A stretch of 40,000 nt of DNA from Desulfovibrio sp. UIB00 (GCF_022508225.1 NZ_JAETXJ010000003.1:79556-119555); one strand, 5' to 3'. Shown: positions 15,894-34,352, counted from the stretch's first letter. Numbers and translations: made by a program. The notes: generated by a model from the letters alone, not told the origin.

Positions 15894-17657
15894 TCAGCCT
15901 TGATTTTTCATGTCGCGGATAAGCCCTTGCAGCACCTGCGCCTGCTGCGCAAGGCCGTCAACGGCATGCGCGGCATTTTCCATTGTTTGAGCCGTTTCGG
16001 CAGAAATGGTTGCAACCTGCTCAACAGACTTATTAATTTCCTCGCTGGCGGCAGATTGCTGCTCGCTTGCCGCTGCAATAGCCTGAACCTGATCATTGAC
16101 AAGGTGCACAAGCTCAAGAATCTGTTTGAGCGAATCGCCGGAGCGGATTGAAAGTTTGGTCGCTTCTTCAATGGCGCTCGCGCTCTGTTCCACATTCACG
16201 ATATTTTTTCGCGTTCCGGCCTGAATATCGCCAATGGCCCGACCCACCTCCTGGGTGGCAGACATGGTTTTTTCCGCCAGTTTGCGCACCTCATCAGCAA
16301 CAACGGCAAAGCCGCGCCCGGCATCGCCCGCCCGGGCAGCTTCTATAGCAGCGTTGAGCGCAAGCAGGTTGGTCTGGTCTGCAATGTCGGCAATAACGCT
16401 CATAACCTGCCCGATGCTTTCGGCCTGCTTGCCCAGTACGTCCATATCCTGCCGGATGGCAAGGGATTGCGTGTGCACAGACTCAATGCCCTTGACCGCA
16501 TCGTTGACAATCTGCGCGCCTTCCAGAGCCTGCTGCCGGGTCTGGTCTGCGATGCCGGCGGCCTGCTGCGCATTTTGGGCAACTTCGCGCACGGTGGCAT
16601 TCATTTGCTCCATGGCCGTTGCGGTTTCGCGCACGCGGCCAGACTGATCGTCAGCTCCGCTGCGGGATTGGTCTATCTTAACCGCAAGATCCTGCGAAGC
16701 GCTGGAGACAATTTCAACCACATGTTCCAGTTGGCTGGCAGCGTGGAGCATCCCTTCGCTTTTGGCGTTCTCTGCAAGAGCTTGTGCCTTTTGGGCTTCC
16801 ACAAGGGCCTTTCTGGCTTCTTCGCGGTCATGTTCCGCTTCGGCCTGAGCGGTAGAAGAAGCCTTGCGGTAGTTTGCCAGATTGTCTGCCGTGCTGTTCA
16901 GCGCCAGAGCCAGAGTGCTCAGACTGGCAAAGCTTCCGGCAGCGAGGCGTTCATCTGACTGCTGGGTGCCAAGGGTGGAGGCAAAAGACACACACTGGCG
17001 CATGGCGCGCAGATCCCTGTTGGTCAGGAAATATCCTGCGCAATACACCAGACATATGGCAAAAATAAATTCAATCCACATCAGGGTGCGCCGCGATGCG
17101 ATGTCCTCATTCATTTCAGCCATGGCTGTTTCAGCAAGGGCGGTAATATTTGCGTCAAATTTTTCAAAATGTTCGCGAAAAGCCACGGCATAGGGCGTGG
17201 CTTCCTTTTCATAGGTCTTGTAGGTGAGGTAACGCTGGTCTGCGGGGATATCCTTTAAGGGAGCAACAAGGCTCTGGCCGTTGTTCATAAATGCAATTGC
17301 CGCCTCATGGGCCTTGTCAGTCAAGGCTCTGGAGTTTGCAGGCAGCTTGAGGGAGGAGAGTGTGGCAAAGTGCTTTTTAACGGCAGCAATGGCTGTGTCT
17401 ATTTGCTTGAGGTCTTTGTCAATATCGCTGCCAAGCATGATATTTCTGGTTAATCTGCTAAAATAATTTATATTTTTAGTTATTTCCAGGGCCATGATCC
17501 TGCCTGCGATGGCGGTATCGCGGGTGCTGGCGAATTTAATTTCAATATTGTTAATTGCCTGCAACGAAAAGCAAAATAGCCCGGCCATGGCAATGGCCCC
17601 AACTGAAATAGTGAGGATAAATTTTCCACGTAACGTATGCAGTATCTGACTGATCAA
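15894..17657 (-). CDS. Methyl-accepting chemotaxis protein
   Basis: 587 aa with the same conserved MA signalling core as the neighbouring MCP. The TTG start at 17657 is preceded by GGAGGAG. Confidence 0.9.
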
Positions 17658-18382
17658 AATGACTCCTCCGGAACAGTAGTGACATAACAGGGCTGATCAC
17701 AGCGCAATATGTTGACAAGACACGGTTGCAACAAATGATTTGTGTTTATCATTCAGTTACAAGTGATGGTATCAATAGTAGTGTTGCTGTAATTTTATTT
17801 TCGGAATTTATGTTACAATGTTTATATTTCATAAATATAAATATTTTTTTCACATGCAAAGATTCATGCGAAAAACAAATGTTAAAAAATATAACATTCG
17901 ATAATTTTTGCTTTAGAAATATTGTTATGACTTACTATAGTAATGTTGAGGTATTGTTCGGACAAGAGCGTGTGATATTATCAAAACTGAACTATCTTGT
18001 TTTTGACCTGATTGTTGAAACATTGATTAAGTGTATAGGATATGATGCTTTAAAAACTGCAAATAAAATCATGATTCATTTTTTATAATATTTATTGCGC
18101 AGATATCACGTAACAATTTTTTTAAGCTTACTTTTTTTTAAAATGTACAACTCGGTATAAATATGAAAAAAATTTATCCGATAAGTGAATATCATTGAGA
18201 TTATCCAGCTTGATAGACGCATATTCTATTTCAGGATAATTTCTATAGTTTTATTTCACATAAATATTGCTGCTTGTAGCTGTATTTGTATCTTAAAAAT
18301 TCATTTTTATTTGTTTGTTGGTGACAGTATTTGCAGAATATATGATTTATTGCAGATAGTTGTGCATAAAGTTAAAAAGTGT

Positions 18383-18398
18383 TGGAACAGATATTGCT
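18383..18398 (+). promoter_or_regulatory. Candidate sigma-54 (-24/-12) promoter for the Cache-GGDEF gene
   Basis: TGGAACAGATATTGCT has GG and GC at the canonical spacing of TGGCACG-N4-TTGCW, with one mismatch in the -24 box. It lies about 47 nt upstream of ATG 18445. Confidence 0.35.
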
Positions 18399-18444
18399 AA
18401 TGATCCCAGGCAGGCAAAAAAAGTAAAATCTGGCAGTTAACGAG

Positions 18445-20070
18445 ATGGCCATGAACACACATAGGCTTATGAGTATTTTTCGGTTTGACACGATCAGGGG
18501 ACGCATTCGCGCCTATACCATTGCCATTGTCTGCATTCCAATTATCATTGCGGCTCTATTTTTTATTTTTTTTCAGCAAGAACGCCTTATCGAGCATGAA
18601 AAAAATCAACTTTCTGAAATTCTCAGTCAAAATAAAAATACAATTGAAGCGTATGTGGACGTGTGCTTTCAGGATGTTTTATTTTTGACAAAAATTATTC
18701 AAGCGCACAGATCAGATATGGAGACTGCTGCAAAAGAATTTAGCGATTACGATGAAAGCCACACAGGCATTGCGGCAGCCGTATTTGTCAATGCACAGGG
18801 GATTTCAGAAATTGACTCCATGGGCAAACCCGGTTTGTACGGCGGTGACAGGTATTACTTTAAACAAGCAATGATGGGCCGCCGTGCAATTACAACAGGA
18901 ATCAAGGGGCGTGTTTCCGGCAAGCCCGTGTGCATGTTTTCAATGCCAGTGACTAATCAGGCTGGAGAATTTGACGGGGTCGTATTTTTGTCCATTCTCG
19001 TTGGCGAGCTGGACGCTTGGCTGCACGGATCTTTTGTTCCAGATAAACAAGGGCTGATACTGTGTGATGCGCAGGGAAACATACTCGCACCCCACACTGT
19101 GGTTGCAAGCAACTCAGACGATGCTGCAAAACAGGTTCCCTTGCAGCTCATGCAGCTTGGCAAAACTGTTCAGATTTTTGTGAATGATCAGGGCGTGCGC
19201 ATGCTCGGCGCTTCCGTTACTGTAGGGAGCGGTGGCTGGCGGCTGGTGTATTTTCGGTCAGTAGACGAAATTGTTGCAGGATACAAATGGCTTACGATTT
19301 TTGTCGGTCTTGGATCGCTCTGCGCCATATTGTTCATGATGCCATTGATGCTGCGTTTTAGCCGCAGCATTGAAGCTCCTCTTGAGGAGCTAACAGCCTA
19401 TGCCCTTGAGCTGCGTAAAAATAATTACGAGGCAACAGGGCAATTGCGTGACCAGAAAAATATGCCCAGCGAGCTCAGAATCCTGTTTGATGCATTTACT
19501 GTAATGAGTTTCAGGGTCGCCAGGCAGATTAAAAAGGCCGAGGCCGTGAGCCTGAAAGATGCGCTCACAGGCCTGCACAACCGCCGTTTTTTGCAGGAAA
19601 TGGGCACAGAATTTCTTAAAAAAACGCATTCAGCAGGCCAGCAGTGCGCTTGCCTGATGCTTGATATCGACCACTTTAAAAGTATCAATGACACCTTTGG
19701 GCACAATGTGGGCGATCTGGTTTTGCAGCACACAGCGCGGATAATCAATGCCGGCGTACGCAGTGCAGACCTCCTTGTGCGCTATGGAGGCGAGGAGTTT
19801 GTGGTTCTTGTTGCCTGTACGGATGCCCGGCAAGGTGAAGAACTTGCCCATCGCATACGGCATGCAGTGGCAGCGAACCCCTTGTCGCACGAAGGCAACA
19901 ACCACACGTTAACAATAAGTATTGGTGTGGCGGTATGCGCAGATATGGCAGACACGGTGGAATCGCCAAAATCCGCCGAGGCGGCGCTGGCCGTCATGCT
20001 GATCCGGGCGGATAAAGCCCTGTACGCTGCCAAGGAAGCTGGGCGTGATGCCGTGGTGGTTTCAGGCTAA
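18445..20070 (+). CDS. Sensor diguanylate cyclase (TM - Cache-like periplasmic domain - TM - GGDEF)
   Basis: 541 aa. TM1 is IAIVCIPIIIAALFFIFF, followed by a ~250-aa extracytoplasmic region and TM2 WLTIFVGLGSLCAILFMMPLML. The GGDEF domain carries RYGGEEFVVLV. Confidence 0.85.
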   Translation: MAMNTHRLMSIFRFDTIRGRIRAYTIAIVCIPIIIAALFFIFFQQERLIEHEKNQLSEILSQNKNTIEAYVDVCFQDVLFLTKIIQAHRSDMETAAKEFSDYDESHTGIAAAVFVNAQGISEIDSMGKPGLYGGDRYYFKQAMMGRRAITTGIKGRVSGKPVCMFSMPVTNQAGEFDGVVFLSILVGELDAWLHGSFVPDKQGLILCDAQGNILAPHTVVASNSDDAAKQVPLQLMQLGKTVQIFVNDQGVRMLGASVTVGSGGWRLVYFRSVDEIVAGYKWLTIFVGLGSLCAILFMMPLMLRFSRSIEAPLEELTAYALELRKNNYEATGQLRDQKNMPSELRILFDAFTVMSFRVARQIKKAEAVSLKDALTGLHNRRFLQEMGTEFLKKTHSAGQQCACLMLDIDHFKSINDTFGHNVGDLVLQHTARIINAGVRSADLLVRYGGEEFVVLVACTDARQGEELAHRIRHAVAANPLSHEGNNHTLTISIGVAVCADMADTVESPKSAEAALAVMLIRADKALYAAKEAGRDAVVVSG

Positions 20071-23972: not shown

Positions 23973-24207
23973 AGTTTACCTGAGTATTGAGTTGACCAGT
24001 ATTGGGGTGGCAAAGCCACAATTCGCGCTAGGTCGTAATCCCCGTTACATATCTGCTTGCTCTGCGGCAGAAGCGCACCGAGGAATGGGCAAAGCCTTGA
24101 GCAATGCGGCCCGCATTGGGAGATATGTTTGGAAGAATAGCGGTGTCTTTGGATTTGCGCCTTGTAGCGCCGCGCTTAAAGGAAAAATCCTGGAATGATT
24201 ATATAAG

Positions 24208-24236
24208 TTGACAGAGCCGGCGGTTCCGCGTAGATA
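24208..24236 (+). promoter_or_regulatory. Sigma-70-like promoter of tRNA-Pro copy 1
   Basis: TTGACA (24208-24213), 17 nt, then TAGATA (24231-24236), 12 nt before the tRNA 5' end. A similar arrangement sits upstream of copy 2. Confidence 0.45.
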
Positions 24237-24248
24237 CACCTTTCGCGT

Positions 24249-24325
24249 CGGGATGTAGCGCAGCCTGGGAGCGCACTTGAATGGGGTTCAAGGGGTCGAA
24301 GGTTCAAATCCTTTCATCCCGACCA
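24249..24325 (+). tRNA. tRNA-Pro (anticodon GGG)
   Basis: Hand-folded cloverleaf. Acceptor is CGGGATG/CATCCCG and D arm GCGC..GCGC. The anticodon stem CTTGA/TCAAG has loop A-T-GGG-G-T. T arm is GAAGG-TTCAAAT-CCTTT, with discriminator A and an encoded CCA. Confidence 0.9.
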
Positions 24326-24327
24326 GA
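24281..24327 (+). repeat. attL: 47-bp direct repeat (tRNA-Pro anticodon loop to CCA plus GA)
   Basis: atggggttcaaggggtcgaaggttcaaatcctttcatcccgaccaga is identical at 31965-32011. Confidence 0.85.
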
Positions 24328-24333
24328 ATTTGG

Positions 24334-24365
24334 GGGAATTCATGGAAACATGAATTCCCTTTTTT
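24334..24365 (+). terminator. tRNA terminator hairpin (island-side version)
   Basis: gggaattcatg-gaaa-catgaattccc followed by tttttt. The same sequence occurs in reverse complement at 34194-34225, and a variant at 32020-32050. Confidence 0.8.
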
Positions 24366-24384
24366 CGTTGGTGGCGAGGAGCCG

Positions 24385-24849
24385 TTATTCAAATGCAGCT
24401 CCATATATTTTTAAGCGAATCCATAACCTTTTAACAGGATTAACCTCCCACCCAAATGCTAGTTTCGGAAAATTTTGAGTAGACCCTATTGCAAAAGCAC
24501 CCACAAGCCGCTCCCCAGTACGGCATTTAATTTCGCAATGTTGATTATACTCCATATTCTCTAGTTTACCTCTCTTTTCAATGTCATATCTGTCGCATTC
24601 TGACGCGCATTCACCAATCCAAGGGATTGACTCCAATTGTCCATCCTCTTTAATAAATCCATAGTCTCGTATGGAAATAGGTCGAAAGCTTTTGCTAACG
24701 ATAAACATAGCATCTCTATCATCCATTTCAGAACGGTAGGAGCCATATTTAACTACAAATCTATCCTTCCTCTCAAACAACTTATCATAAATAACGATTA
24801 TACCGCCTATTGCAGATATAAGAATTCCAAAATCAGACAGATTTATCAT
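24385..24849 (-). CDS. Hypothetical single-TM protein (paralog of 33710..34174)
   Basis: 154 aa. N-terminal TM is FGILISAIGGIIVIY, followed by a Cys-containing ~125-aa domain (WIGECASECD...CEIKC). It differs from the second copy at 21 of 154 positions by eye, mostly conservatively. No family was recognised. Confidence 0.7.
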   Translation of the reverse strand: MINLSDFGILISAIGGIIVIYDKLFERKDRFVVKYGSYRSEMDDRDAMFIVSKSFRPISIRDYGFIKEDGQLESIPWIGECASECDRYDIEKRGKLENMEYNQHCEIKCRTGERLVGAFAIGSTQNFPKLAFGWEVNPVKRLWIRLKIYGAAFE

Positions 24850-24962
24850 AATAAAAGCCTACCTTGCAGACTTTAAAATATTGTGTATGGGTCAAATTAA
24901 TTCATGGAAATATAGATTTTATTTTTTATTAAAAACTATGCATGAAATAGTGATAGCACAAG

Positions 24963-25418
24963 TTAGTTATTGCATCTATACATTTGCCTAACTAGCACTA
25001 CAATGAAAAGTAAAAATGACCATACAGATGTGATGCATAAAAAAATTAAATATTTAAATGTTTCAGTTGTATTATAATAGGCAAGAAGTGTTGCTATATA
25101 TGTAATACACCCAATGAAAGTAATGTATAAATAATTTAATAATAATATTTTAAAATATCCCTCTTTCTTGTATAATTGTAAATGTGGAGAATCAATAGAA
25201 AATAATATTGCTATTGCAGTAGTAATAAATCCAACAATAGATATTGTTGAAGATGCTACAATTGATGAGAAGCTATCTATTTTTTGGCAGACAATAGTAA
25301 AATAACATTCAAAAAAATTAGTTTTCGTGAGAAAGAAAAAAAGCATTCCAGGAATTGTCACGTTCATACATAGTAGCACTAGTGACATCGTCAGAATTTT
25401 GTTTGATTTTTTCTTCAT
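24963..25418 (-). CDS. RexB-like four-TM membrane protein
   Basis: 151 aa with a basic N-terminus (MKKKSNK) and four hydrophobic segments. Size, topology and a central stretch (KKEGYFKILLLNYLY) resemble remembered lambda RexB (144 aa). It lies directly downstream of the RexA-like gene. The start is uncertain (25418, 25388, 25367 or 25346). Confidence 0.65.
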   Translation of the reverse strand: MKKKSNKILTMSLVLLCMNVTIPGMLFFFLTKTNFFECYFTIVCQKIDSFSSIVASSTISIVGFITTAIAILFSIDSPHLQLYKKEGYFKILLLNYLYITFIGCITYIATLLAYYNTTETFKYLIFLCITSVWSFLLFIVVLVRQMYRCNN

Positions 25419-26259
25419 TAATAAAATCTCTTACTTTATCTATAACAACGTCATTTGCAATGTCTTTCTTATTCATTGTTGCCGCAATTGATTCTTCATT
25501 CTGTGATATGCTTATAATATCACTTACAGCTCCACTTCCAACGATATAAAAATCTGTGGCGGCTTCTCCAAATTCATGCTTAGCTTTAACTACAAATTTT
25601 TTTAAATCTTCATCCTTGATAGTAGAAGCAATTGCCTGAAATGATGCATTGATATCCTTTCTCTTCTTTGGTTTAATAATTATTTCAATAGCATCGGTGT
25701 CAGTTTCAATTTTGTCTCCGAAGTATTCTTTAAGACACTGAAAAATTCCATTATTCATTCCAACTTCAAAAGTTGCCCTTCCAACAAAGGGCATCTTCAA
25801 TACTTCTGCAGTGGTAGCAGAAGATGTGAGAGGATAAACTTTGAAATTTATTCCCAGAACATCGAGATTTTTTAAAATACAATTTATTAATTGCGTGAAT
25901 TTGGTAATTTTGGGTCCGTAAAAAGTTGACCCAATGCCAAAATAATCTTTTCTTGGAAGAATATATGACGCGAAACCCAATGATTCATCAGCAGATAGCT
26001 TATCATAAATATCAGACTGAGACATTTGATTTTCATTTATAGCTTTAATAATTTCTGAACTTTTTGTCATTACAAAAAGATATACTCCATCAGAAACATA
26101 AAATATAAATAATTTTTCACCGAATTCAGTTACTAAATTCTTTTTAAATGCAGCAGGGGCATGACGATCAAAATTACGAATAAATTCTCGCAAATTAAAG
26201 GAATATTTAGATTCTGTAGAATCCAGAACTAAATAGTGTGCGAAGTAGTTAACTTTCAT
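25318..26259 (-). CDS. RexA-like protein
   Basis: 313 aa from ATG 26259 (GAGGGA upstream; the ORF track starts at TTG 26310). By-eye collinear matches to remembered lambda RexA: LSADESLGFASY/LADDESLGFPSF, FYGPKITKFTQLI/VFGPTTSDLTDFL, PFVGRATFEV/HFIGRTTVKV, IEIIIKPKKRKDI/LDIVIKPKFKRDI. Confidence 0.75.
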   Translation of the reverse strand: MKVNYFAHYLVLDSTESKYSFNLREFIRNFDRHAPAAFKKNLVTEFGEKLFIFYVSDGVYLFVMTKSSEIIKAINENQMSQSDIYDKLSADESLGFASYILPRKDYFGIGSTFYGPKITKFTQLINCILKNLDVLGINFKVYPLTSSATTAEVLKMPFVGRATFEVGMNNGIFQCLKEYFGDKIETDTDAIEIIIKPKKRKDINASFQAIASTIKDEDLKKFVVKAKHEFGEAATDFYIVGSGAVSDIISISQNEESIAATMNKKDIANDVVIDKVRDFINEEKIKQNSDDVTSATMYERDNSWNAFFLSHEN

Positions 26260-26709
26260 GCATCCCTCATTATTTATCGTTTCATAAAAAATATCAGCAA
26301 ATTTAAACAATGCAACTTATTTCGAACAAGACATATTTAACTATCTAATTTTAATATGTTATTTGGAAAAAATTAGAATGATGCTATAAGAATACGAAGT
26401 TGTTCATCTGCCACTCATGGGTATTATTAGCTTTATTTCTCCCTCCTTTCCCCAATACCCCCCTCCAATCCTTCCGCCCCCAAATCTCCCCCTAGGGTTT
26501 GCCCTGGGTCGAATTTGAGCCCTACTGCGATTTTTTTCTTGGAATGATGGTTGGGTCAGGATTTGTTAAAAAATCCCCTTAGAATCAAAATTTGGCCCAA
26601 AGTTCGATTTCATATGGTAACGGCAAGATCATGCATATATGCAAATAAAATCGCTCTATTGAATATTTTCAGATAGATATGTGAATACAATCTATTTGGA
26701 GGTATTCTG

Positions 26710-27102
26710 ATGGAATGTAATGATTGGAAATTGATTTGCTGTTACACAAGGAAACGAGCAATCGATGATGGAATCATGGTTGATGTATCAGATTTTGTTA
26801 GCGACTTTGGGTTTATTGTTCCAGTTGCAATAACAAATAACCTTTTCACACGGTATATTCAGCCAACAAATAAATTGGCTGAAGCTGGACAATCTTCAGA
26901 ATCAAGAATGATTGATTTGCTCGTTGTTATGATGATAAAATTATTTCAACGACCAAATACAGAACAACTTTCATTCAATGTTAGCTTTGACATGGAATAT
27001 GAAGAGAAGATTGAATCAAAGCTCGTTCAAATCTTAGCGGTAATCGGTCAAGGTGATGCTGGGGAACCAGTGCTGACAATAATGCTACCTGAAGACTTTT
27101 AG
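26710..27102 (+). CDS. Small acidic protein of mobile-element type (possibly DUF6573-like)
   Basis: 130 aa with GGAGG 6 nt upstream. YTRKRAIDDGIMVDVSDF...GFIVPVAIT...PVLTIMLPEDF resembles small proteins I recall from plasmid and ICE accessory regions. The family name comes from memory only. Confidence 0.55.
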   Translation: MECNDWKLICCYTRKRAIDDGIMVDVSDFVSDFGFIVPVAITNNLFTRYIQPTNKLAEAGQSSESRMIDLLVVMMIKLFQRPNTEQLSFNVSFDMEYEEKIESKLVQILAVIGQGDAGEPVLTIMLPEDF

Positions 27103-27113
27103 TTAAAAAAAAT

Positions 27114-27139
27114 GGCCGGAATTAGTCCGGTCTTTTTTT
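27114..27139 (+). terminator. Rho-independent terminator
   Basis: 7-bp stem (ggccgga/tccggtc, with one G:U) and a 5-nt loop, followed by T7. It is preceded by an A8 run, so it may act in both directions. Confidence 0.7.
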
Positions 27140-27612
27140 GTGAATTAATAACTTAGCAACTTAATATGGTATGAGGCAGTGTTCATGGTGATTGAAAAGA
27201 TGTTCAAGCGATGAAGCAACTGTATGAAGCGTGTATCAATGATCTTAAAAACTAACTGTAATAATTGACAAAATAAATCTGTCCGTTAATTTTGAGCTAC
27301 GATTTCGAATGGATTTTGCCGTTAAAATCACATCACAAGGAGTTATTGATGAGAAATGCTGTCTGTTTTGTATTAGGTATGTCTAAGATGCTTACATTAC
27401 ATCATATTCCATGAACTTTGCTTAATCAGCGGTCCTATGCCGCATGATTAGCGAACTGTCTTCTTATTATTGCAACATGATGATTTTATTATATTTGTAA
27501 AGAAAGTTATTTTATTTAAGTATGTTATTTAGTCGTAGTTTAAAAGTATTCACAAAATTATTTTAATTACGGTGAGTTATGAAACAATACAGAATTTGCG
27601 AAGGTTTTAAAC

Positions 27613-28641
27613 ATGAGCATCGTACAGAACACACCTCAAGAGAATTCTAACTTTAAAGCACTGAGTTTAGAAACACTTTTAAAACAAAGCTACAACGTTG
27701 AATATCTGATTGATCAAATTCTTCCAAAAAATGAATCACTGTTAATTGTTGGAAAATGTGGATGCGGAAAATCAACTTTGGTGATGCAGATCGCTGTAGA
27801 GCTTTGCGACCCATCACATAACTTGTTCTTAGGTCTGTTGCCAATTTCACCAAGTCCACAACCTCGCAAAGTACTCATAATCCAAGCTGAGAACCATGGT
27901 GGAGGACTTTCGAAGCATTTTACCGAAATGCTTCAAGGACGGTCCATGGCATCGTGCCAATCGATTTTGACCGGAATCTATTTCATGAGCAACAAGCTCA
28001 CAGGTAGGGCCAGCGGTGATTTGATGGCACCAGCGTTTTACGCAGAGGTTGAACGGCTTCTTGCAGCCGGGCACTACGATGTTGTTATTCTGGACCCTCT
28101 CGCGAGTTTCCATTCGAGCGAAGAATTCAATAATGAGCAGATGCGGCGCGTATTGGATAGGTTGCAAGCTCTCACTGAGAATTACCATGCAACGCTGATT
28201 GTGGTGCATCACGATGGTAAAAATCCCGCAAACTCTACTGGGGGTCGTGGTGCAAGCTCAATCGGAGATTGGGCCGCAAACGTGTGGCAGATTCGGAACA
28301 ATAAAGGAAAGTTTGAGCTTGAGAATCTTAAAGCTAGGAATTCTGCAAGGTATCCATCAGTGATTAAGCTCGAGTTGAAAAATTCCATCTTTACTGCATC
28401 ATCAGCAACATCTAATTCGTTACATGCAGACCTTGCATATGTTGTTAATGCTTTAAAAAATCTGAATGGACAAGCGAATTCAACTAGCGATTTGGTTAAT
28501 GAAACGTCAAGGTTACTTAGAAATGATGGAAAAGCATCTTCACCGAGCATTGCAAGACCATTAATTGATAAAGCTGTAAATTCTGGATTAGTTACTGAAA
28601 TTCATCCAGGAGGAAATAAGATTACGTTCAAATTGATTTAA
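27613..28641 (+). CDS. RecA-fold AAA ATPase (RepA/AAA_25-like) with C-terminal winged-helix-like tail
   Basis: 342 aa. Walker A is GKCGCGKST and Walker B VVILDPL, with a LIVVHHDGKN sensor-like block. This type is typical of replication or mobilisation ATPases of small integrative elements. Confidence 0.8.
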   Translation: MSIVQNTPQENSNFKALSLETLLKQSYNVEYLIDQILPKNESLLIVGKCGCGKSTLVMQIAVELCDPSHNLFLGLLPISPSPQPRKVLIIQAENHGGGLSKHFTEMLQGRSMASCQSILTGIYFMSNKLTGRASGDLMAPAFYAEVERLLAAGHYDVVILDPLASFHSSEEFNNEQMRRVLDRLQALTENYHATLIVVHHDGKNPANSTGGRGASSIGDWAANVWQIRNNKGKFELENLKARNSARYPSVIKLELKNSIFTASSATSNSLHADLAYVVNALKNLNGQANSTSDLVNETSRLLRNDGKASSPSIARPLIDKAVNSGLVTEIHPGGNKITFKLI

Positions 28642-28653
28642 CAATAATAAATA

Positions 28654-28707
28654 GGTCTGTATCTTTTATGAATACACACTATTAGTTAACTATAAAAGGT
28701 ACAGACC
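28654..28707 (+). terminator. Long imperfect hairpin after the ATPase gene
   Basis: ggtctgtatctttta ... tataaaaggtacagacc: arms of about 16 bp with one mismatch and a loop of about 20 nt. Confidence 0.5.
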
Positions 28708-29165
28708 GTTATTAAAGTAAATTCCAGTTATATTTAAATTTCAGGTATATTTTAAAAAAAATTCAATAAAATCAGCATGTTTTGAATATGTAAATTTTGA
28801 AATTTACAAGCTGAAAAGTTATTGTAAGCTAATAAAATATTTGAATATTTTAAATTTCAAACTGCTATATATAATAATGGAATGCAAAAACATTCCAATT
28901 ATTATTTTCTCTACACGCTCGATACTCACTGCATCACTGTACTTCATTTTCATTTCAAACACTTCATAGAGATATTTTTAGGAATACATATTAATGTGTT
29001 CAACAAAAGCATTGGTAAAACCTACTGGTTCTTTTGTTTACGGAGGTTTGTGTTGAATATTGCAATGCAATTATGGAAGCTACAATACCTAGTTAGAAAT
29101 TCAAAGCTATTAAGGAAGATTGTGATTGAAACAATAGTTACAATTTTAAAAAGCAGAATTTAACC

Positions 29166-29190
29166 AAAGAGTGTGTACACACTCTTTTTT
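29166..29190 (+). terminator. Perfect palindrome plus T-run
   Basis: aaAGAGTGTGTACACACTCTtt (18-bp perfect core at 29168-29185) runs into a T6 tract. Confidence 0.6.
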
Positions 29191-29241
29191 ATCACTTGAA
29201 TATAGATATTCTTCATAAAAATATGTCTTATGGAGAATGCT

Positions 29242-29655
29242 ATGAGTAAGAAATCACCTGATTCACGTGTTGATAAAGTTAAGAAGCAGGAATCAAAGTA
29301 TGATGCAAATGTGTTGCGGGATTTGATTCGGAACGGCAAAACCGCTTCGGAAATCATGCTGGCAATGGATATTGGTCACAAACAGATTTTGAAGCATCAC
29401 GTTTTGAAACTGATCGCTACTGACAAGGAATTCTACGAAGTTCCGGGACTGTACGATAAGAACCGCCGTAAGGCCTTCGTAAACAGCCGTGGTGAAATCC
29501 GATTAAGGATGCCCAATATCGATTTCAAGGGAATGTCTCTTGAACCAGATACCGAATTTGATGTGGTGGTGGAAGATGATAAGATCATCCTGATTCGCAT
29601 TGTAGCAGAACCGAAGCTAGATTCGTCCAAAATCCTCGCCGTGAGCGATTTGTAA
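29242..29655 (+). CDS. Putative DNA-binding regulator with AbrB/SpoVT-like C-terminal domain
   Basis: ATG 29242 is preceded by GGAGA (the ORF track starts at 29230). The C-terminal GEIRLRMPNIDFKGMSLEPDTEFDVVVEDDKIILIRI looks like a swapped-hairpin (AbrB/MazE) fold, and the N-terminus is basic. The call is tentative. Confidence 0.5.
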   Translation: MSKKSPDSRVDKVKKQESKYDANVLRDLIRNGKTASEIMLAMDIGHKQILKHHVLKLIATDKEFYEVPGLYDKNRRKAFVNSRGEIRLRMPNIDFKGMSLEPDTEFDVVVEDDKIILIRIVAEPKLDSSKILAVSDL

Positions 29656-29885
29656 TCGCAAGGAGCCACTTCAGAAAATGGGGTGGCCTTTTAATTATAA
29701 CAACGCTGATTTGTTAAAAAATGGAACGTCCGATTTGTACCAGAAACGGACATTCAAATGTTTGACGGGGTGAAATTAAATAAATTCAGCCTGTTATGTG
29801 GAGTTCCAAGGGAAACCCTATCCCTGTCCCCAAAATGAATGTCCAAATTCTTGGACTTTTCATAACGAAACGTAAATTGGAGTAC

Positions 29886-30452
29886 ATGATCATGAAGGTG
29901 CAGCCAATTACTGATCTGAAGGATATTAAGCGCATCAAGCGATTGTTGTCATCTAATCCGAGAAACTTGTTGCTATTTATAATGGGTATCAACGCAGGGT
30001 TACGAGTCCAAGATATTTTGGCATTGCGTGTGACTGATGTTGAATATGCTGTTGTTGGAGATCGTATAACTGTGATTGAAAGGAAGACAAAGAAAGAGAA
30101 TGTGCTCATCATTAACCAGGAAATTTATGATGCCGTGCAACGGTATCTGGCCTTTCATAAGCAGCGTGTTCCGAGGGAGTTCCTGTTTAAGAGCCGGAAA
30201 GGTTGGAACTACCCACTGAGCACATATGCTGTAACCCATATGGTCCAGGGCTGGTGCGATGAAATCAATCTGGCCGGCAATTACGGTGCTCATACCCTTC
30301 GCAAGACGTGGTGTTACCAGCAACGAAAGCTCTATGGCGTGTCCTGGGAGTTACTCGCGAAAAGGATGAACCATTCCAACCCCGCAGTAACTCGCCGTTA
30401 CCTTGGCATCCAAGCTGAGGAAGTGGAAGAAGTGTTGCTCAATGCTATCTAG
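29886..30452 (+). CDS. Short tyrosine recombinase (catalytic domain only, ~186-188 aa)
   Basis: GLRVQD (Arg I region), AHTLRKT (H-x-x-R), a NHSN His and RRYLG (catalytic Tyr). The start is ATG 29886 or 29892, with GGAG at 29879-29882. The ORF-track N-terminal extension is unlikely to be real. Confidence 0.75.
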   Translation: MIMKVQPITDLKDIKRIKRLLSSNPRNLLLFIMGINAGLRVQDILALRVTDVEYAVVGDRITVIERKTKKENVLIINQEIYDAVQRYLAFHKQRVPREFLFKSRKGWNYPLSTYAVTHMVQGWCDEINLAGNYGAHTLRKTWCYQQRKLYGVSWELLAKRMNHSNPAVTRRYLGIQAEEVEEVLLNAI

Positions 30453-30633
30453 CACAGCTTTAAAAAAATTTGAAAAAAAATTGTGTATGATGAAGTCGCA
30501 CAACTGTAATGAGCTGTATGAAAAAGTGTCTGAGCAACTTAAAAAACATGTCGTTTGCTTAAAATAATAATGACGTGCTATCGGATATCAGCTCTACCAA
30601 AATAATGGTAGCAACTTCAACAGGAGATAATTG

Positions 30634-31737
30634 ATGAGCGTACACCCACATAAAGATGGGCGCTGGATTTGCACGTATTATCCAAACGGCATACGGAAGG
30701 ACAAGTCGTTTGGGCGCGGTCCTGATGCAAAATCTTCAGCAGACTTGTTTGATTTAGAAATGAAAAAACTTTACTCAAATAAAGGAACTCATTGCGAATC
30801 AGTCGTACCAGTACAAATCTCTGAGCCAATGAAACCTTTAAGCCAGATGACCTTTGGAGGACTGGTAGAAGAGTATCTTCAGCATAGTCGGGCGAATGGT
30901 TCCACAGAAAACCATTTAGACAGCATTTTGAGTGTCGCAAATGCGCTCTTTTACCCGGCATTTGGAAAGGAAAAGCTGATTGTAAGCTTCGATTATGGAC
31001 ACGACATCTTGCCGTTCATGACCAAGATCGCAAACGAGCCTTCTCAAAGGGGGAGTTGTCGTGCGACAGTAACCGTGAACAAGTACGGACACTTTCTCGT
31101 AGCTCTGTTCAACTACGCAATAGCGCGTGACTACATTTCAAACAACCCTATGCGCCTTTGGAAAAAAGCAAAGGTCAAAAAAAAGGACATACAGCTTACA
31201 ATTGAAGATGCACAAAAGATTATGCATTGTGCTGCGCCTCACTTGAGATGGGCAATGGAAGTATGCTTTAATTTGGGGACACGCTCTGGTGAATCAGAAT
31301 TACTTTCATTGAAATGGTCAGACGTAGACTACGAGAAAAAGATGGTCCATGTCTACGGCAGAAAGACAAAAACGGACCGGTTCATACCAGTCAGTGATGA
31401 GTTTCTTAAGAAGCTTGCAGAAAAGCAGGCTGTCGCCCGTACAGATCACATTGTTGAATTTCGAGGCAGACCAATTCGAATGATTCGTAATGCGTTCCGT
31501 CAGGCTGTGAGAAAAGCTCAAATTACATATCCTGTTCGCATGTATGATTTGAGACACCTTTTTGCGACCTCTCTCATCAGTGCAGGGGCCTCAATTGGGT
31601 CAGTTTCGAAGCTGATGGGTCATGCTCGAATCTCAACAACGGTCAATGTCTACTACCAGGTCAAGCAGGAGGAGCTGGAGCGCGCGATGAGCATTTTACC
31701 CAAGCTCGAAGTGAACGATGCTAAGACGGGCTCTTGA
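30634..31737 (+). CDS. int: Tyrosine-type site-specific integrase
   Basis: 367 aa with AGGAGA 6 nt upstream of ATG 30634. It has an N-terminal SAM/arm-like region, TRSGE (Arg I), YDLRHLFAT (H-x-x-R), GHARISTT and VYYQ (Tyr). It lies about 230 bp from attR. Confidence 0.9.
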   Translation: MSVHPHKDGRWICTYYPNGIRKDKSFGRGPDAKSSADLFDLEMKKLYSNKGTHCESVVPVQISEPMKPLSQMTFGGLVEEYLQHSRANGSTENHLDSILSVANALFYPAFGKEKLIVSFDYGHDILPFMTKIANEPSQRGSCRATVTVNKYGHFLVALFNYAIARDYISNNPMRLWKKAKVKKKDIQLTIEDAQKIMHCAAPHLRWAMEVCFNLGTRSGESELLSLKWSDVDYEKKMVHVYGRKTKTDRFIPVSDEFLKKLAEKQAVARTDHIVEFRGRPIRMIRNAFRQAVRKAQITYPVRMYDLRHLFATSLISAGASIGSVSKLMGHARISTTVNVYYQVKQEELERAMSILPKLEVNDAKTGS

Positions 31738-31755
31738 GGGCCAAAAACAACCAAC

Positions 31756-31788
31756 CAGGATAGCGAATAGTTCGTTGTCCTGTTTTTT
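31756..31788 (+). terminator. Rho-independent terminator of int
   Basis: 12-bp stem (31756-31767 / 31771-31782, two G:U pairs) with a 3-nt loop, followed by T6 (31783-31788). Confidence 0.75.
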
Positions 31789-31847
31789 GCTGATTAAAAA
31801 ACCATCAGTGGAAAAAATATTACTGTATAACAATGTTACGACAAAGC

Positions 31848-31897
31848 AAAACGCCAAAAACATGTTGGCGTATAATTGGCGTATAATTGGCGTTTAA
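31848..31897 (+). repeat. Tandem 11-bp repeats TTGGCGTATAA x2 plus TTGGCGTTTAA, with an upstream inverted copy
   Basis: Copies at 31865-31875, 31876-31886 and 31887-31897. The inverted aaaacgccaa lies at 31848-31857. The array sits between int and attR. Confidence 0.7.
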
Positions 31898-31964
31898 TAT
31901 TAAATATGAACTGTTAATATATTAATAATAACCAATGTAATATTAGTATATAAGATTATCTGTG

Positions 31965-32011
31965 ATGGGGTTCAAGGGGTCGAAGGTTCAAATCCTTTCA
32001 TCCCGACCAGA
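31965..32011 (+). repeat. attR: displaced 3' part of tRNA-Pro (47-bp direct repeat)
   Basis: Identical to 24281-24327. There is no tRNA 5' half upstream, only AT-rich island DNA. Confidence 0.85.
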
Positions 32012-32964: not shown

Positions 32965-32993
32965 GGGCCGGGGATTTCTCCGGCCCTTTTTTT
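32965..32993 (+). terminator. Rho-independent terminator
   Basis: gggccgg-ggatttct-ccggccc followed by T7. Confidence 0.85.
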
Positions 32994-33094
32994 ATGTGTT
33001 GTTGCCGCAATAACCGCGCTTGTCTTCGGTTGACCACACCGATGGATAAAAATAATATAAAGTATCTTGTCGCAACCCTGTTACTGGAGATGTT

Positions 33095-33559
33095 ATGGAC
33101 CTGAAGAAAGGACAAAGCATAATTGATGTCTTTGATGCGCTGTTACAGTCTACAGATCCAGCCCTCGCGCATGTGCGGGTAGCGCCAGACGCATGGACGC
33201 TTACGGAAATTGTCGGCCATCTTGTGGATTCTGCTGCCAACAACCATCAGCGGTTTGCCCGCTTGATATCGGGCAACCTTGAACAGTTTCCCCCATATGA
33301 CGCGGAAATATTTGTGACTGTTCAGCAGTATGACGGCTGTGATTTTGCAGAAATGGCAAAGTTCTGGCGGCAATATAACTGGATGCTCATGCACATAATG
33401 CGGGCAATACCAGCCACTGCCCTTGAGAATATGTGGCAGCGCCCGGATGGGGCAAAGTCGCTACGGACTCTTGTTGAAGGCTATTTTGAGCATATAGAGA
33501 TGCACGCAGACCAGTATCGCGAGCGCATGCAGATGGTAACGACTCATATTTTTGGTTAG
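33095..33559 (+). CDS. DinB-superfamily (DinB_2-like) metal-dependent protein
   Basis: 154 aa with WTLTEIVGHLVDSAANNHQR and a C-terminal YFEHIEMHADQ His pattern. Confidence 0.7.
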   Translation: MDLKKGQSIIDVFDALLQSTDPALAHVRVAPDAWTLTEIVGHLVDSAANNHQRFARLISGNLEQFPPYDAEIFVTVQQYDGCDFAEMAKFWRQYNWMLMHIMRAIPATALENMWQRPDGAKSLRTLVEGYFEHIEMHADQYRERMQMVTTHIFG

Positions 33560-33709
33560 AAGCAGGAATTAGCGGTAAAATATCAAATTTTGCATCTGGT
33601 TCTAAAATTTAATAAAGTTCATGAAGGCATGAAGTTCATTACAATCGCAGACAGGAATGAACTGAGTTGAATATTCAAAAGCTCACTATTTTCCTTGCAG
33701 GTATTACCT

Positions 33710-34174
33710 ATGATGAATCTGTCGGATTTTGGAATTCTTATTTCTGCTATAGGTGGTGTAATTGTTATATATGAAAAAGTTTTTGAAAAACGAGACAAAT
33801 TTATCATTAAGTTTGATTCTTATCATCCAGAAATGGATGATAGAGATGCAATGTTTATAGTTAGTAAAAGCTTTCGACCTATCTCAATAAGAAACTATGG
33901 CTTTATAAAAGAGGATGGACAGTTGGAGTCAATCCCTTGGATTGGTGAATGCGCGTCAGAATGCGACAACTATGATATTGAAAGAAGAGGCACATTAGAG
34001 AATATGGAGTATAATCAAATTTGCGAAATTAAATGCCGCATAGCGGGGCGGCTTGTAGGTGCTTTTGCAATAGGATCTACTCAGAATTTTCCGAAACTAG
34101 CATTTGGGTGGGAGGTTAATCCTGTTAAAAGGTTATGGATTCGCTTAAAAATATATGGAGCTGCATTTGAATAA
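33710..34174 (+). CDS. Hypothetical single-TM protein (paralog of 24385..24849)
   Basis: 154 aa from ATG 33710, in locally AT-rich DNA. The C-terminal 42 aa are identical to the other copy. It converges on tRNA-Pro copy 2. Confidence 0.7.
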   Translation: MMNLSDFGILISAIGGVIVIYEKVFEKRDKFIIKFDSYHPEMDDRDAMFIVSKSFRPISIRNYGFIKEDGQLESIPWIGECASECDNYDIERRGTLENMEYNQICEIKCRIAGRLVGAFAIGSTQNFPKLAFGWEVNPVKRLWIRLKIYGAAFE

Positions 34175-34193
34175 CGGCTCCTCGCCACCAACG

Positions 34194-34225
34194 AAAAAAG
34201 GGAATTCATGTTTCCATGAATTCCC
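34194..34225 (-). terminator. tRNA terminator hairpin (copy 2)
   Basis: Reverse complement of 24334-24365, identical. Confidence 0.8.
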
Positions 34226-34233
34226 CCAAATTC

Positions 34234-34310
34234 TGGTCGGGATGAAAGGATTTGAACCTTCGACCCCTTGAACCCCATTCAAGTGCGCTCCCAGGCTGCG
34301 CTACATCCCG
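34234..34310 (-). tRNA. tRNA-Pro (anticodon GGG), second identical copy
   Basis: Reverse complement is identical to 24249-24325. Confidence 0.9.
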
Positions 34311-34322
34311 ACGCGAAAAGAG

Positions 34323-34352
34323 TAACTACGCGGAACAGCACGGCCTGTCAAC
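34323..34352 (-). promoter_or_regulatory. Sigma-70-like promoter of tRNA-Pro copy 2
   Basis: On the minus strand: TTGACA (34352-34347), 18 nt, then TAGTTA (34328-34323). It is partly conserved with the promoter of copy 1. Confidence 0.4.

What the first reader, a model, noticed from the sequence alone, without database searches (positions are those of the whole stretch)
24963..26259. RexA/RexB-like two-gene module as cargo of a small island in a Desulfovibrio-type host
Seen: the 313-aa ORF aligns collinearly by eye with my recollection of phage lambda RexA. Matching blocks are LSADESLGFASY/LADDESLGFPSF, FYGPKITKFTQLI/VFGPTTSDLTDFL, PFVGRATFEV/HFIGRTTVKV, IEIIIKPKKRKDI/LDIVIKPKFKRDI and VKAKHEFGEAATDFYI/LRAKDEAGDILTEHYL. 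The next ORF is a 151-aa protein with a basic N-terminus and four hydrophobic segments, like lambda RexB. Established: lambda RexAB is a prophage-encoded exclusion/abortive-infection pair with a cytoplasmic sensor and a membrane effector. Inference: here the pair is uncoupled from any cI-type immunity region. It sits at the att-proximal cargo end of a non-phage island, followed by a third small membrane protein gene in the same orientation. This could be a diverged variant, possibly with three components, in an anaerobe whose phage defence is poorly explored.
Basis: partly seen in the sequence, partly recalled or inferred. Interest (0 to 1): 0.8.

Follow-up and report, generated by a model that had tools for sequence, protein, structure and literature searches.

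The report
RexAB phage-exclusion pair on tRNA island
The two genes are true relatives of phage lambda's RexA/RexB abortive-infection pair, carried as a swappable two-gene cassette on a 7.7-kb island inserted in a proline tRNA gene of a Desulfovibrio-family bacterium; this is a new example of a known defence system, not a new kind, and the proposed third gene does not belong to it.

Summary
ORF 25318-26259(-) (313 aa) is a RexA: Pfam RexA E 9e-53, direct phmmer to the lambda RexA crystal chain 8TWQ E 3.5e-21, and 8TWQ is the top fold match. ORF 24963-25418(-) (151 aa) is a diverged RexB. It has no pairwise similarity to lambda RexB. However, it hits the PADLOC RexB profile (4e-6), a family profile aligns to lambda RexB over 133 columns (96.6 %, E 5e-10), and it has four long helices.

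The pair is conserved in all 14 related loci examined. The third ORF (24385-24849) is found with the pair only in one near-identical metagenome copy. It has an 86 % paralog beside a second tRNA-Pro that has no rexAB, and it lies outside the 1.4-kb rexAB block that is 98-100 % identical to that metagenome copy. It is therefore not a third component.

A related contig provides the empty site. The island spans about 24326-32011 in the 3' end of tRNA-Pro(GGG), has 47-nt perfect direct repeats, and has no cI/Cro by Pfam. The host is Desulfovibrionaceae.

One extra finding: in this ~310-aa RexA clade, rexB always starts 53-122 nt inside rexA. Gene callers skip or truncate it, so RexA can look like an orphan.

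Verdict: new member of a known kind, of modest interest.

The parts
25318..26259 (-). rexA homolog, 313 aa (cytoplasmic RexA/RdgC-fold protein)
   Evidence: Pfam RexA PF15969 E 9.2e-53; PADLOC RexA 7.6e-54; PHROG 12654 RexA-like 2.3e-28; phmmer to 8TWQ lambda RexA 3.5e-21; Foldseek top hit 8TWQ E 7e-13, then RdgC. The basic pair K225/K227 aligns with lambda R219/K221 (PMC11077077).
24963..25418 (-). rexB homolog, 151 aa, four-helix membrane protein; its first 101 nt overlap the 3' end of rexA out of frame
   Evidence: PADLOC RexB 4e-6 over residues 11-147. All 9 positional orthologs hit PADLOC RexB, best 4e-25. hhalign of the family profile against lambda RexB gives 96.6 %, E 5e-10, 133 columns. 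11 of 45 family members carry Pfam RexB PF15968. Four hydrophobic segments; AF2 pLDDT 83 with 4 long helices.
24900..26320 (-). approximate extent of the rexAB cassette (98-100 % identical to metagenome contig L014, while both flanks are 76-92 % identical)
   Evidence: Identity in 100-nt windows between the window and L014.
24385..24849 (-). ORF3, 154 aa, one N-terminal TM helix, uncharacterised family; inside the island but not part of rexAB
   Evidence: No Pfam, PADLOC, PHROG, NCBIfam or PDB hit. 86 % paralog at 33710-34174. Absent from 12 related rexAB loci. 65 representative clusters in 1.84e9 proteins.
24249..24325 (+). tRNA-Pro(GGG) copy 1, the integration target
   Evidence: ARAGORN.
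24281..24327 (+). attL core (3' 47 nt of the tRNA)
   Evidence: 47-nt 100 % direct repeat with 31965-32011; alignment.
24332..24361 (+). tRNA terminator hairpin
   Evidence: Terminator scan. Also present after attR and after tRNA copy 2.
31965..32011 (+). attR core (displaced 3' end of the tRNA)
   Evidence: In L021 this sequence is continuous with the full tRNA.
30631..31737 (+). island tyrosine integrase, 368 aa
   Evidence: Pfam Phage_integrase 1e-24; PHROG 1 integrase 1.3e-54.
29796..30452 (+). second, short tyrosine recombinase, 218 aa
   Evidence: Pfam Phage_integrase 1e-18; PHROG 216 1.1e-42.
29230..29655 (+). 141-aa island ORF, no family hit
27613..28641 (+). AAA_25 (RepA/primase-helicase-type) ATPase, 342 aa; probable island replication protein
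   Evidence: Pfam AAA_25 2.6e-31; PHROG 239 DNA primase/helicase 4e-17.
26710..27102 (+). DUF6573 protein, 130 aa, divergent from rexA
   Evidence: Pfam DUF6573 5.9e-22.
33710..34174 (+). ORF3 paralog next to tRNA-Pro copy 2 (outside the island, no rexAB)
   Evidence: 86 % aa identity; 644-nt inverted repeat 24207-24850 / 33709-34352 at 89 %.
34234..34310 (-). tRNA-Pro(GGG) copy 2
   Evidence: ARAGORN; also present in the empty-site contig L021.

Best explanation
This is a two-gene RexAB-family module that most likely acts as an abortive-infection / phage-exclusion system. RexA (313 aa) is a cytoplasmic protein with the RexA/RdgC fold and a retained basic DNA-contact pair. RexB (151 aa) is a four-helix inner-membrane protein. 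By analogy with lambda, RexA responds to an infection-associated signal and activates RexB. RexB is modelled as an ion channel, so membrane potential and ATP would collapse and the infection would abort. The module is cargo on a 7.7-kb integrase-bearing island inserted in the 3' end of tRNA-Pro(GGG) in a Desulfovibrionaceae chromosome, and it behaves as a discrete 1.4-kb cassette exchanged between island variants. Shown here: homology of both proteins, conserved pairing, island boundaries, cassette mosaicism, and lack of linkage to ORF3. Inferred: the sensor-to-channel mechanism and the defence phenotype, both transferred from lambda and the actinophage Rex-like systems. In this clade rexB starts 53-122 nt inside rexA in a fixed relative frame. 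I infer that this couples or limits RexB translation relative to RexA, a ratio known to matter in lambda.
For: RexA: Pfam 9e-53, PADLOC 8e-54, PHROG RexA-like 2e-28, phmmer to 8TWQ 3.5e-21, BLASTP 28 % over 266 aa, fold match to 8TWQ E 7e-13 followed by RdgC. RexB: PADLOC RexB 4e-6 full length, 9 of 9 positional orthologs hit RexB with best 4e-25, profile against lambda RexB 90.7 % and 96.6 % at E 5e-10, 11 of 45 family members carry Pfam RexB, four TM segments. Pairing: a RexB-like ORF follows rexA in 14 of 14 loci. Cassette: 98-100 % identity to L014 across about 24900-26320 against 76-92 % in the flanks. Island: 47-nt direct repeats, integrase, empty site in L021, GC 30-39 % against 55-63 % in flanking chromosome. 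Mechanism: lambda model and RexA structure, as summarised in PMC11077077 and 10.1101/2024.10.26.620412.
Against: No functional data exist for this clade. Pairwise similarity to lambda RexB is nil, and the window protein itself does not reach Pfam RexB. The RexB channel activity is a long-standing model and not a demonstrated activity. PMC11077077 found no correlation between RexA DNA binding and T4rII exclusion, and it raises the possibility that exclusion is a by-product of other Rex functions. Promoter-like matches around the genes are no more frequent than in shuffled sequence, so expression is unproven.
Confidence: 0.8

Rival explanations
1. A three-component variant in which the 154-aa membrane-anchored ORF3 works together with RexA and RexB.
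For: ORF3 is adjacent, on the same strand and 113 nt downstream of rexB. It is also adjacent in L014. It has an N-terminal TM helix.
Against: There is no ORF3 homolog in the 12 other rexAB loci, including the 55 %-identical L015. An 86 % paralog sits beside tRNA-Pro copy 2 next to a DinB_2 gene, without rexAB. Identity to L014 drops from 98-100 % to 76-91 % exactly between rexB and ORF3, so the two have different histories. ORF3 gives no defence-family hit.
Confidence: 0.04
2. The pair serves the island's own biology and is not a defence system. RexA would be a non-specific DNA-binding modulator of an excision/replication switch. RexB would inhibit ClpXP/ClpAP proteolysis and stabilise island or antitoxin proteins. 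Both roles are documented for the lambda proteins.
For: PMC11077077 and 10.1101/2021.04.19.439022 show that RexA biases the lambda switch independently of RexB, and that RexB inhibits Clp proteolysis. The DNA-contact basic pair is conserved.
Against: The island has no Pfam-detectable cI/Cro pair for RexA to act on. The cassette moves between island variants as a unit that is independent of the backbone. It also occurs in unrelated contexts, including a Mu-like prophage, beside a serine recombinase, and in plain chromosome. That pattern fits autonomous accessory cargo better than a backbone regulator.
Confidence: 0.12
3. The downstream ORF is merely an unrelated small polytopic membrane protein, or a chance hydrophobic ORF in AT-rich DNA, and RexA here is an orphan.
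For: BLASTP to lambda RexB finds nothing. The window protein gives no Pfam RexB hit. Gene callers do not call the ORF in several relatives. The literature speaks of orphan RexA genes.
Against: The profile evidence is consistent and covers the full length. The ORF is conserved in position, length, relative frame and N-terminal motif in 14 of 14 loci spanning several phyla. The AF2 model is confident.
Confidence: 0.03

Closest known systems
Phage lambda RexA/RexB (also phage 434, Hafnia phage yong1, Klebsiella phage ST101-KPC2phi6.1)
   Same: Same two protein families in the same order (rexA then rexB, co-oriented). The RexA fold and the R219/K221-equivalent basic pair are retained. RexB is about 150 aa with four TM segments.
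   Different: RexA identity is only 27-33 %, and RexB similarity is seen only at profile level. RexA is about 35 aa longer at the C-terminus. rexB overlaps rexA by 101 nt, where the lambdoid phages have a 15-nt spacer. The pair is not downstream of cI and is not in a prophage; it sits on a 7.7-kb integrative island.
Rex-like systems of temperate actinophages (Sbash gp30/31, CarolAnn, Butters, Toast), as described in PMC11077077 and PMC7542560
   Same: Diverged RexA-like plus membrane RexB-like pairs that exclude heterotypic phages. Some of them are separated from the immunity repressor.
   Different: Those are prophage-encoded in Actinobacteria and have longer RexA-like proteins (337-372 aa). 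I made no direct sequence comparison here.
Sucellos (SclA/SclB), a RexAB-like system from Vibrio cholerae chromosomal-integron cassettes (10.1101/2024.07.02.601686)
   Same: A RexAB-like two-gene defence carried as mobile cargo outside an immunity region, with both genes required.
   Different: Sucellos is reported not to match the Pfam domains and to resemble RexAB only in predicted structure. The present RexA matches Pfam RexA at 9e-53, so it is a much closer relative of lambda RexA.
RdgC (recombination-associated DNA-binding protein)
   Same: Shares its fold with RexA. It is the second-best structural match after 8TWQ, as reported for lambda RexA.
   Different: The match is weak (E 6e-3, TM 0.24), there is no sequence-family match, and RdgC has no membrane partner.

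Membership tests
RexA (Pfam PF15969 / PADLOC RexA) | Sequence match to the family profile above the curated threshold | tested here: met
   179.7 bits against a cut-off of 25, E 9.2e-53, covering profile 1-233 of 235; PADLOC 7.6e-54.
RexA (Pfam PF15969 / PADLOC RexA) | Direct homology to the experimentally characterised lambda RexA | tested here: met
   phmmer E 3.5e-21 to 8TWQ; BLASTP E 7e-25.
RexA (Pfam PF15969 / PADLOC RexA) | Two-domain RexA/RdgC-like fold | tested here: met
   AF2 model with mean pLDDT 69; the dimerisation-domain region 187-242 is poorly modelled. Foldseek top hits are 8TWQ chains, E 7e-13, probability 1.0, TM 0.47-0.52.
RexA (Pfam PF15969 / PADLOC RexA) | Basic DNA-contact residues (lambda R219/K221) | tested here: met
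   K225 and K227 align with R219 and K221. The clade consensus is VKAK. The residue roles come from PMC11077077.
RexA (Pfam PF15969 / PADLOC RexA) | Dimerisation and non-specific DNA binding | not testable with these tools
   Needs purified protein (SEC-MALS, EMSA).
RexB (Pfam PF15968 / PADLOC RexB) | Sequence match to a RexB profile | tested here: met
   PADLOC RexB E 4e-6, residues 11-147 against profile 5-135 of 141. Family profile against lambda RexB: 96.6 %, E 5e-10. The window protein alone does not reach Pfam RexB, but 11 of 45 family members do.
RexB (Pfam PF15968 / PADLOC RexB) | Protein of about 140-160 aa with four transmembrane segments | tested here: met
   Hydropathy; AF2 helices 3-31, 47-74, 88-114 and 118-150, pLDDT 83.
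RexB (Pfam PF15968 / PADLOC RexB) | Ion-channel / membrane-depolarising activity on activation by RexA | not testable with these tools
   Requires membrane-potential assays.
RexAB system | rexA immediately followed by a co-oriented rexB, conserved among homologs | tested here: met
   14 of 14 loci.
RexAB system | Exclusion / abortive infection of superinfecting phage that requires both genes | not testable with these tools
   Needs a phage challenge of the cloned cassette.
Lambda-type immunity-region arrangement (cI-rexA-rexB under PRM) | Location directly downstream of a cI-type repressor in a prophage | tested here: not met
   No HTH or cI-like gene in the island by Pfam. The island lacks phage structural genes. 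This feature defines the lambdoid arrangement and not the protein families.

The most novel reading that the evidence does not exclude
The ~310-aa RexA clade may be a distinct architectural variant of RexAB. In it, a conserved 53-122-nt out-of-frame overlap places the rexB ribosome-binding site and first transmembrane helix inside the rexA C-terminal tail. This overlap would enforce translational coupling and a fixed RexA:RexB ratio. Because gene callers then skip or truncate rexB, many reported 'orphan' RexA genes would be annotation artefacts. On a cI-less island, this clade would also show that RexAB works as a stand-alone defence cassette independent of any lysis-lysogeny switch.
Probability: 0.35. 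Interest if true: 0.45.

Novelty: new member of a known kind. Interest (0 to 1): 0.3.

Why it matters
The finding extends a classic but mechanistically unresolved abortive-infection system to Desulfovibrionaceae and to a minimal carrier that is not a prophage. It also gives a compact 1.4-kb cassette that could be tested without the confounding lambda immunity circuitry. That matters because recent work questions whether exclusion is the primary role of Rex. A practical lesson follows from the gene overlap: automated annotation often misses or truncates rexB in this clade. Defence-system finders that depend on gene calls will therefore under-count RexAB, and RexA may wrongly appear as an orphan.

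Tried and rejected
(1) Pairwise BLASTP of the 151-aa protein against lambda RexB found nothing, and Pfam RexB gave no hit for the window protein. Profiles were needed.
(2) The search for related loci with the 15-sequence alignment failed for lack of conserved stretches, so I repeated it with 10 sequences.
(3) Exact-sequence look-ups of window RexA, ORF3 and the GlgB-like flank found nothing. The source genome is apparently not in that collection.
I redid it with database hits.
(5) Searches for related islands using the AAA_25 ATPase and the integrase gave only a 1.3-kb fragment and an unrelated contig. The idea of a 'cargo slot filled by different defence genes in sister islands' could therefore not be tested.
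(6) ORF3 was scanned against Pfam, PADLOC, PHROGs, NCBIfam and the PDB, both alone and as a family. No assignment resulted.
(7) I considered a link between the DinB_2 gene next to the ORF3 paralog and the DinB gene upstream of rexA in L005. The two proteins are unrelated.
(8) I considered a degenerate att core preceding the hairpin-like 29-mer at 24899-24927, which would imply tandem islands. No tRNA-like core is there.
(9) Promoter scans are uninformative: 12 matches found against 13.3 expected.

Full report
**1. The observation**

The region holds three co-oriented minus-strand ORFs:
- a 313-aa ORF at 25318-26259, whose ATG lies inside a longer TTG ORF; homologs start at this Met;
- a 151-aa ORF at 24963-25418;
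- a 154-aa ORF at 24385-24849.

BLASTP against the RexA gene taken from the lambda record gives 28 % identity over 266 aa, E 7e-25. phmmer against all PDB sequences finds only lambda RexA (8TWQ), E 3.5e-21. The region is strongly AT-rich, with GC 0.30-0.33 against about 0.55-0.63 in the chromosomal flanks.

**2. RexA**

- Pfam RexA (PF15969) scores 179.7 bits against a cut-off of 25, E 9e-53, over the whole profile.
- PADLOC RexA gives 8e-54. PHROG 12654, 'RexA-like exclusion protein', gives 2e-28.
- An AlphaFold model built on ten clade members is of moderate quality (pLDDT 69). It retrieves 8TWQ first (E 7e-13, probability 1.0) and E. coli RdgC next. This is the same relationship described for lambda RexA in PMC11077077.
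- The two basic residues whose mutation abolishes DNA binding and T4rII exclusion in lambda (R219/K221) align with K225/K227. They fall in the clade-wide VKAK motif.

**3. RexB**

Pairwise comparison with lambda RexB finds nothing, and the window protein alone misses Pfam RexB. Profile-level evidence is nevertheless consistent:
- The protein hits the PADLOC RexB profile end to end at 4e-6.
- I collected the ORFs in the equivalent position of eight related loci. All nine proteins hit PADLOC RexB, best 4e-25.
- Their profile aligns with the single lambda RexB sequence at 90.7 %.
- A broader 19-sequence profile aligns at 96.6 %, E 5e-10, over 133 of 144 residues.
- Eleven of the 45 database relatives already carry a precomputed Pfam RexB domain.
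- Hydropathy shows four segments in both the window protein and lambda RexB.
- The AlphaFold model (pLDDT 83) has four long helices joined by two short ones.

The protein is a diverged but genuine RexB.

**4. Is the pair conserved, and is there a third gene?**

A RexB-like ORF follows rexA in all 14 loci of this clade that have downstream sequence: the window, L002, L005-L008, L010-L012, L014-L016, L018 and L020. The organisms are labelled Desulfuromonadaceae, Desulfobulbaceae, Methylophaga, Acinetobacter, Bacteroidales, Rifleibacterium and Salinisphaera.

The 154-aa ORF3 behaves differently:
- tblastn finds it in none of these loci except L014, which is a near-identical copy of the same cassette.
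- Inside the window it has an 86 %-identical paralog at 33710-34174. That copy sits next to a DinB_2 gene and a second tRNA-Pro(GGG), with no rexAB nearby.
- Both ORF3 copies lie in a 644-nt, 89 % inverted repeat that includes the tRNA genes.
- Windowed identity between the window and L014 is 98-100 % from about 26320 to about 24900. It is only 76-92 % on both sides, and ORF3 is among the diverged flanks.

So rexAB is a discrete, recently exchanged 1.4-kb cassette, and ORF3 has a separate history. ORF3 has one N-terminal TM helix. It belongs to a small uncharacterised family with 65 representative clusters and no hit in any library. The three-component idea is not supported.

**5. The carrier**

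tRNA-Pro(GGG) lies at 24249-24325. Its 3' 47 nt are repeated perfectly at 31965-32011.

A metagenome contig from a close relative, L021 (92-96 % identical core), has OMP gene - hairpin - complete tRNA-Pro - DUF488 gene as one continuous stretch. Its sequence matches window 32992-31965 and then 24369-24097. This is the empty site, and it fixes the island at about 24326-32011 (7.7 kb).

The island encodes:
- ORF3, rexB and rexA at the tRNA (attL) end;
- a DUF6573 protein;
- an AAA_25 ATPase related to the helicase part of phage and plasmid primase-helicases;
- an unassigned 141-aa protein;
- a short tyrosine recombinase, and a 368-aa integrase at the attR end.

No capsid, tail, terminase or lysis gene was found. 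No HTH/cI/Cro-type gene was detected either. The unassigned 141-aa ORF could still be a regulator.

ORF3 lies between rexB and the tRNA. Whether the island is a satellite or an integrative mobilisable element cannot be decided.

The host assignment also holds. The flanking GlgB-like protein has named relatives only in Desulfovibrio sp. and Desulfovibrionaceae MAGs, at 59-71 % identity, and unnamed metagenome relatives at 97 %.

**6. Contexts of the clade elsewhere**

- L002-L004 have a divergent HTH_3 / HTH_19 pair about 2 kb upstream of rexA and are listed as viral contigs.
- L020 is Mu-like, with an HTH_3 repressor-like gene, rexAB, Mor and a GH108 endolysin.
- L018 has rexAB next to a large serine recombinase.
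- L005 and L016 look like plain chromosome.

Among 50,697 cultured-phage records, only 19 have a tblastn-detectable relative of this RexA. All 19 are lambdoid enterobacterial phages at 33 % identity or less. So the clade moves among many kinds of mobile element, and a location away from cI is not unusual for it. PMC11077077 already notes Rex-like pairs separated from the repressor and RexA genes outside prophages. A RexAB-like pair, Sucellos, has been validated as integron cargo.

**7. A feature that was not in the finding**

In every one of the 14 loci, rexB starts 53-122 nt before the rexA stop, always in the same relative frame. It usually has a GGAG/GAGG-like motif 8-12 nt upstream. In the window the overlap is 101 nt (25318-25418).

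The overlapped stretch encodes the basic N-terminus and first TM helix of RexB. The PADLOC alignment begins at residue 11, so the start cannot lie downstream of the rexA stop.

Lambda, Hafnia phage yong1 and Klebsiella phage phi6.1 have cI-rexA, a 15-nt gap, then rexB.

Gene callers handle the overlap badly:
- rexB is not called in L002-L004, L005 and L015.
- It is called N-terminally truncated in L014 (134 aa) and L016 (126 aa instead of 156).
- 19 of the 45 database RexB-like clusters are shorter than 130 aa.

PMC11077077 cites Salinisphaera sp. NP40 as having an orphan RexA. A Salinisphaera MAG has the overlapping rexB. This suggests, but does not prove, that some 'orphans' are annotation artefacts.

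The near-invariant RexA W304 codon (TCC TGG) shares its bases with the RexB P-G motif (CCT GGA). Conservation there cannot be assigned to one frame.

**8. Mechanism**

Shown: both proteins are homologous to lambda RexA and RexB, they are consistently paired, RexB has the expected membrane topology, and the cassette is mobile.

Inferred from lambda (Parma et al. 1992 model, as cited; PMC11077077): RexA senses an infection-associated signal and activates RexB, causing depolarisation and abortive infection.

I give about 0.8 to 'this is a functional RexAB-family module' and about 0.6 to 'its main role is abortive-infection defence'. Even for lambda, the channel activity and the trigger remain unproven. 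The overlap plausibly limits RexB translation relative to RexA. From my own knowledge of the lambda literature, excess RexB suppresses exclusion. This last step is inference.

**9. Verdict**

This is a new member of a known kind. There is one modestly interesting side result: a clade-specific gene overlap that leads to systematic under-annotation of rexB.

Noticed in passing
window 25318-25418; also L002, L005-L008, L010-L012, L014-L016, L018, L020: rexB begins 53-122 nt inside the 3' end of rexA in a fixed relative frame in all 14 loci of this clade, whereas lambdoid phages have a 15-nt gap. Gene callers skip or truncate rexB in most of these loci, which can make RexA look like an orphan, as in the Salinisphaera case cited in PMC11077077.
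   Followed up: partly
window 24207-24850 and 33709-34352: A 644-nt inverted repeat (89 % identical) contains a full tRNA-Pro(GGG) with its promoter-like upstream 42 nt, the terminator hairpin and a copy of ORF3 in each arm. One ORF3 copy is inside the island and the other is in the chromosomal flank of the second tRNA. This raises the possibility of inversion or gene conversion between the arms.
   Followed up: partly
window 32993-34189 versus L021 3523-5194: The stretch next to tRNA-Pro copy 2 is a second variable spot. The window has the ORF3 paralog plus a DinB_2 gene where the related contig L021 has Trypsin_2 and HTH_3 genes. It may be the remnant of a related island. No second att repeat was found.
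   Followed up: partly
window 24899-24927: A 29-nt degenerate copy (79 %) of the tRNA terminator hairpin lies in the rexB-ORF3 spacer. It sits exactly where identity to L014 falls from 99 % to 84-95 %. It could be a cassette boundary or a chance match; no tRNA-like core precedes it.
   Followed up: partly
window 24385-24849 and 33710-34174: ORF3 belongs to a small family of proteins of about 155-165 aa (65 representative clusters at E<=1e-3). Members have one N-terminal TM helix and conserved D29, G64 and A120. There is no hit in Pfam, PADLOC, PHROGs, NCBIfam or the PDB, so function is unknown.
   Followed up: partly
window 29796-30452 and 30631-31737: The island carries two tyrosine recombinases in tandem: a short 218-aa one with only the catalytic domain, and a full 368-aa integrase. 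The role of the short one (invertase, Xer-like resolvase or directionality helper) is unknown.
   Followed up: no
window 17001-19000: A second low-GC stretch (0.36-0.41) lies in an otherwise 0.50-0.60 GC region. At least from 18587 onward it is shared with the related contig L021 (91.5 % identity). I did not examine it.
   Followed up: no
L020 8001-10534; L018 8001-10881: The same RexA clade occurs in a Mu-like prophage between an HTH_3 repressor-like gene and Mor plus a GH108 endolysin. It also occurs directly upstream of a 493-aa large serine recombinase in another viral contig.
   Followed up: partly
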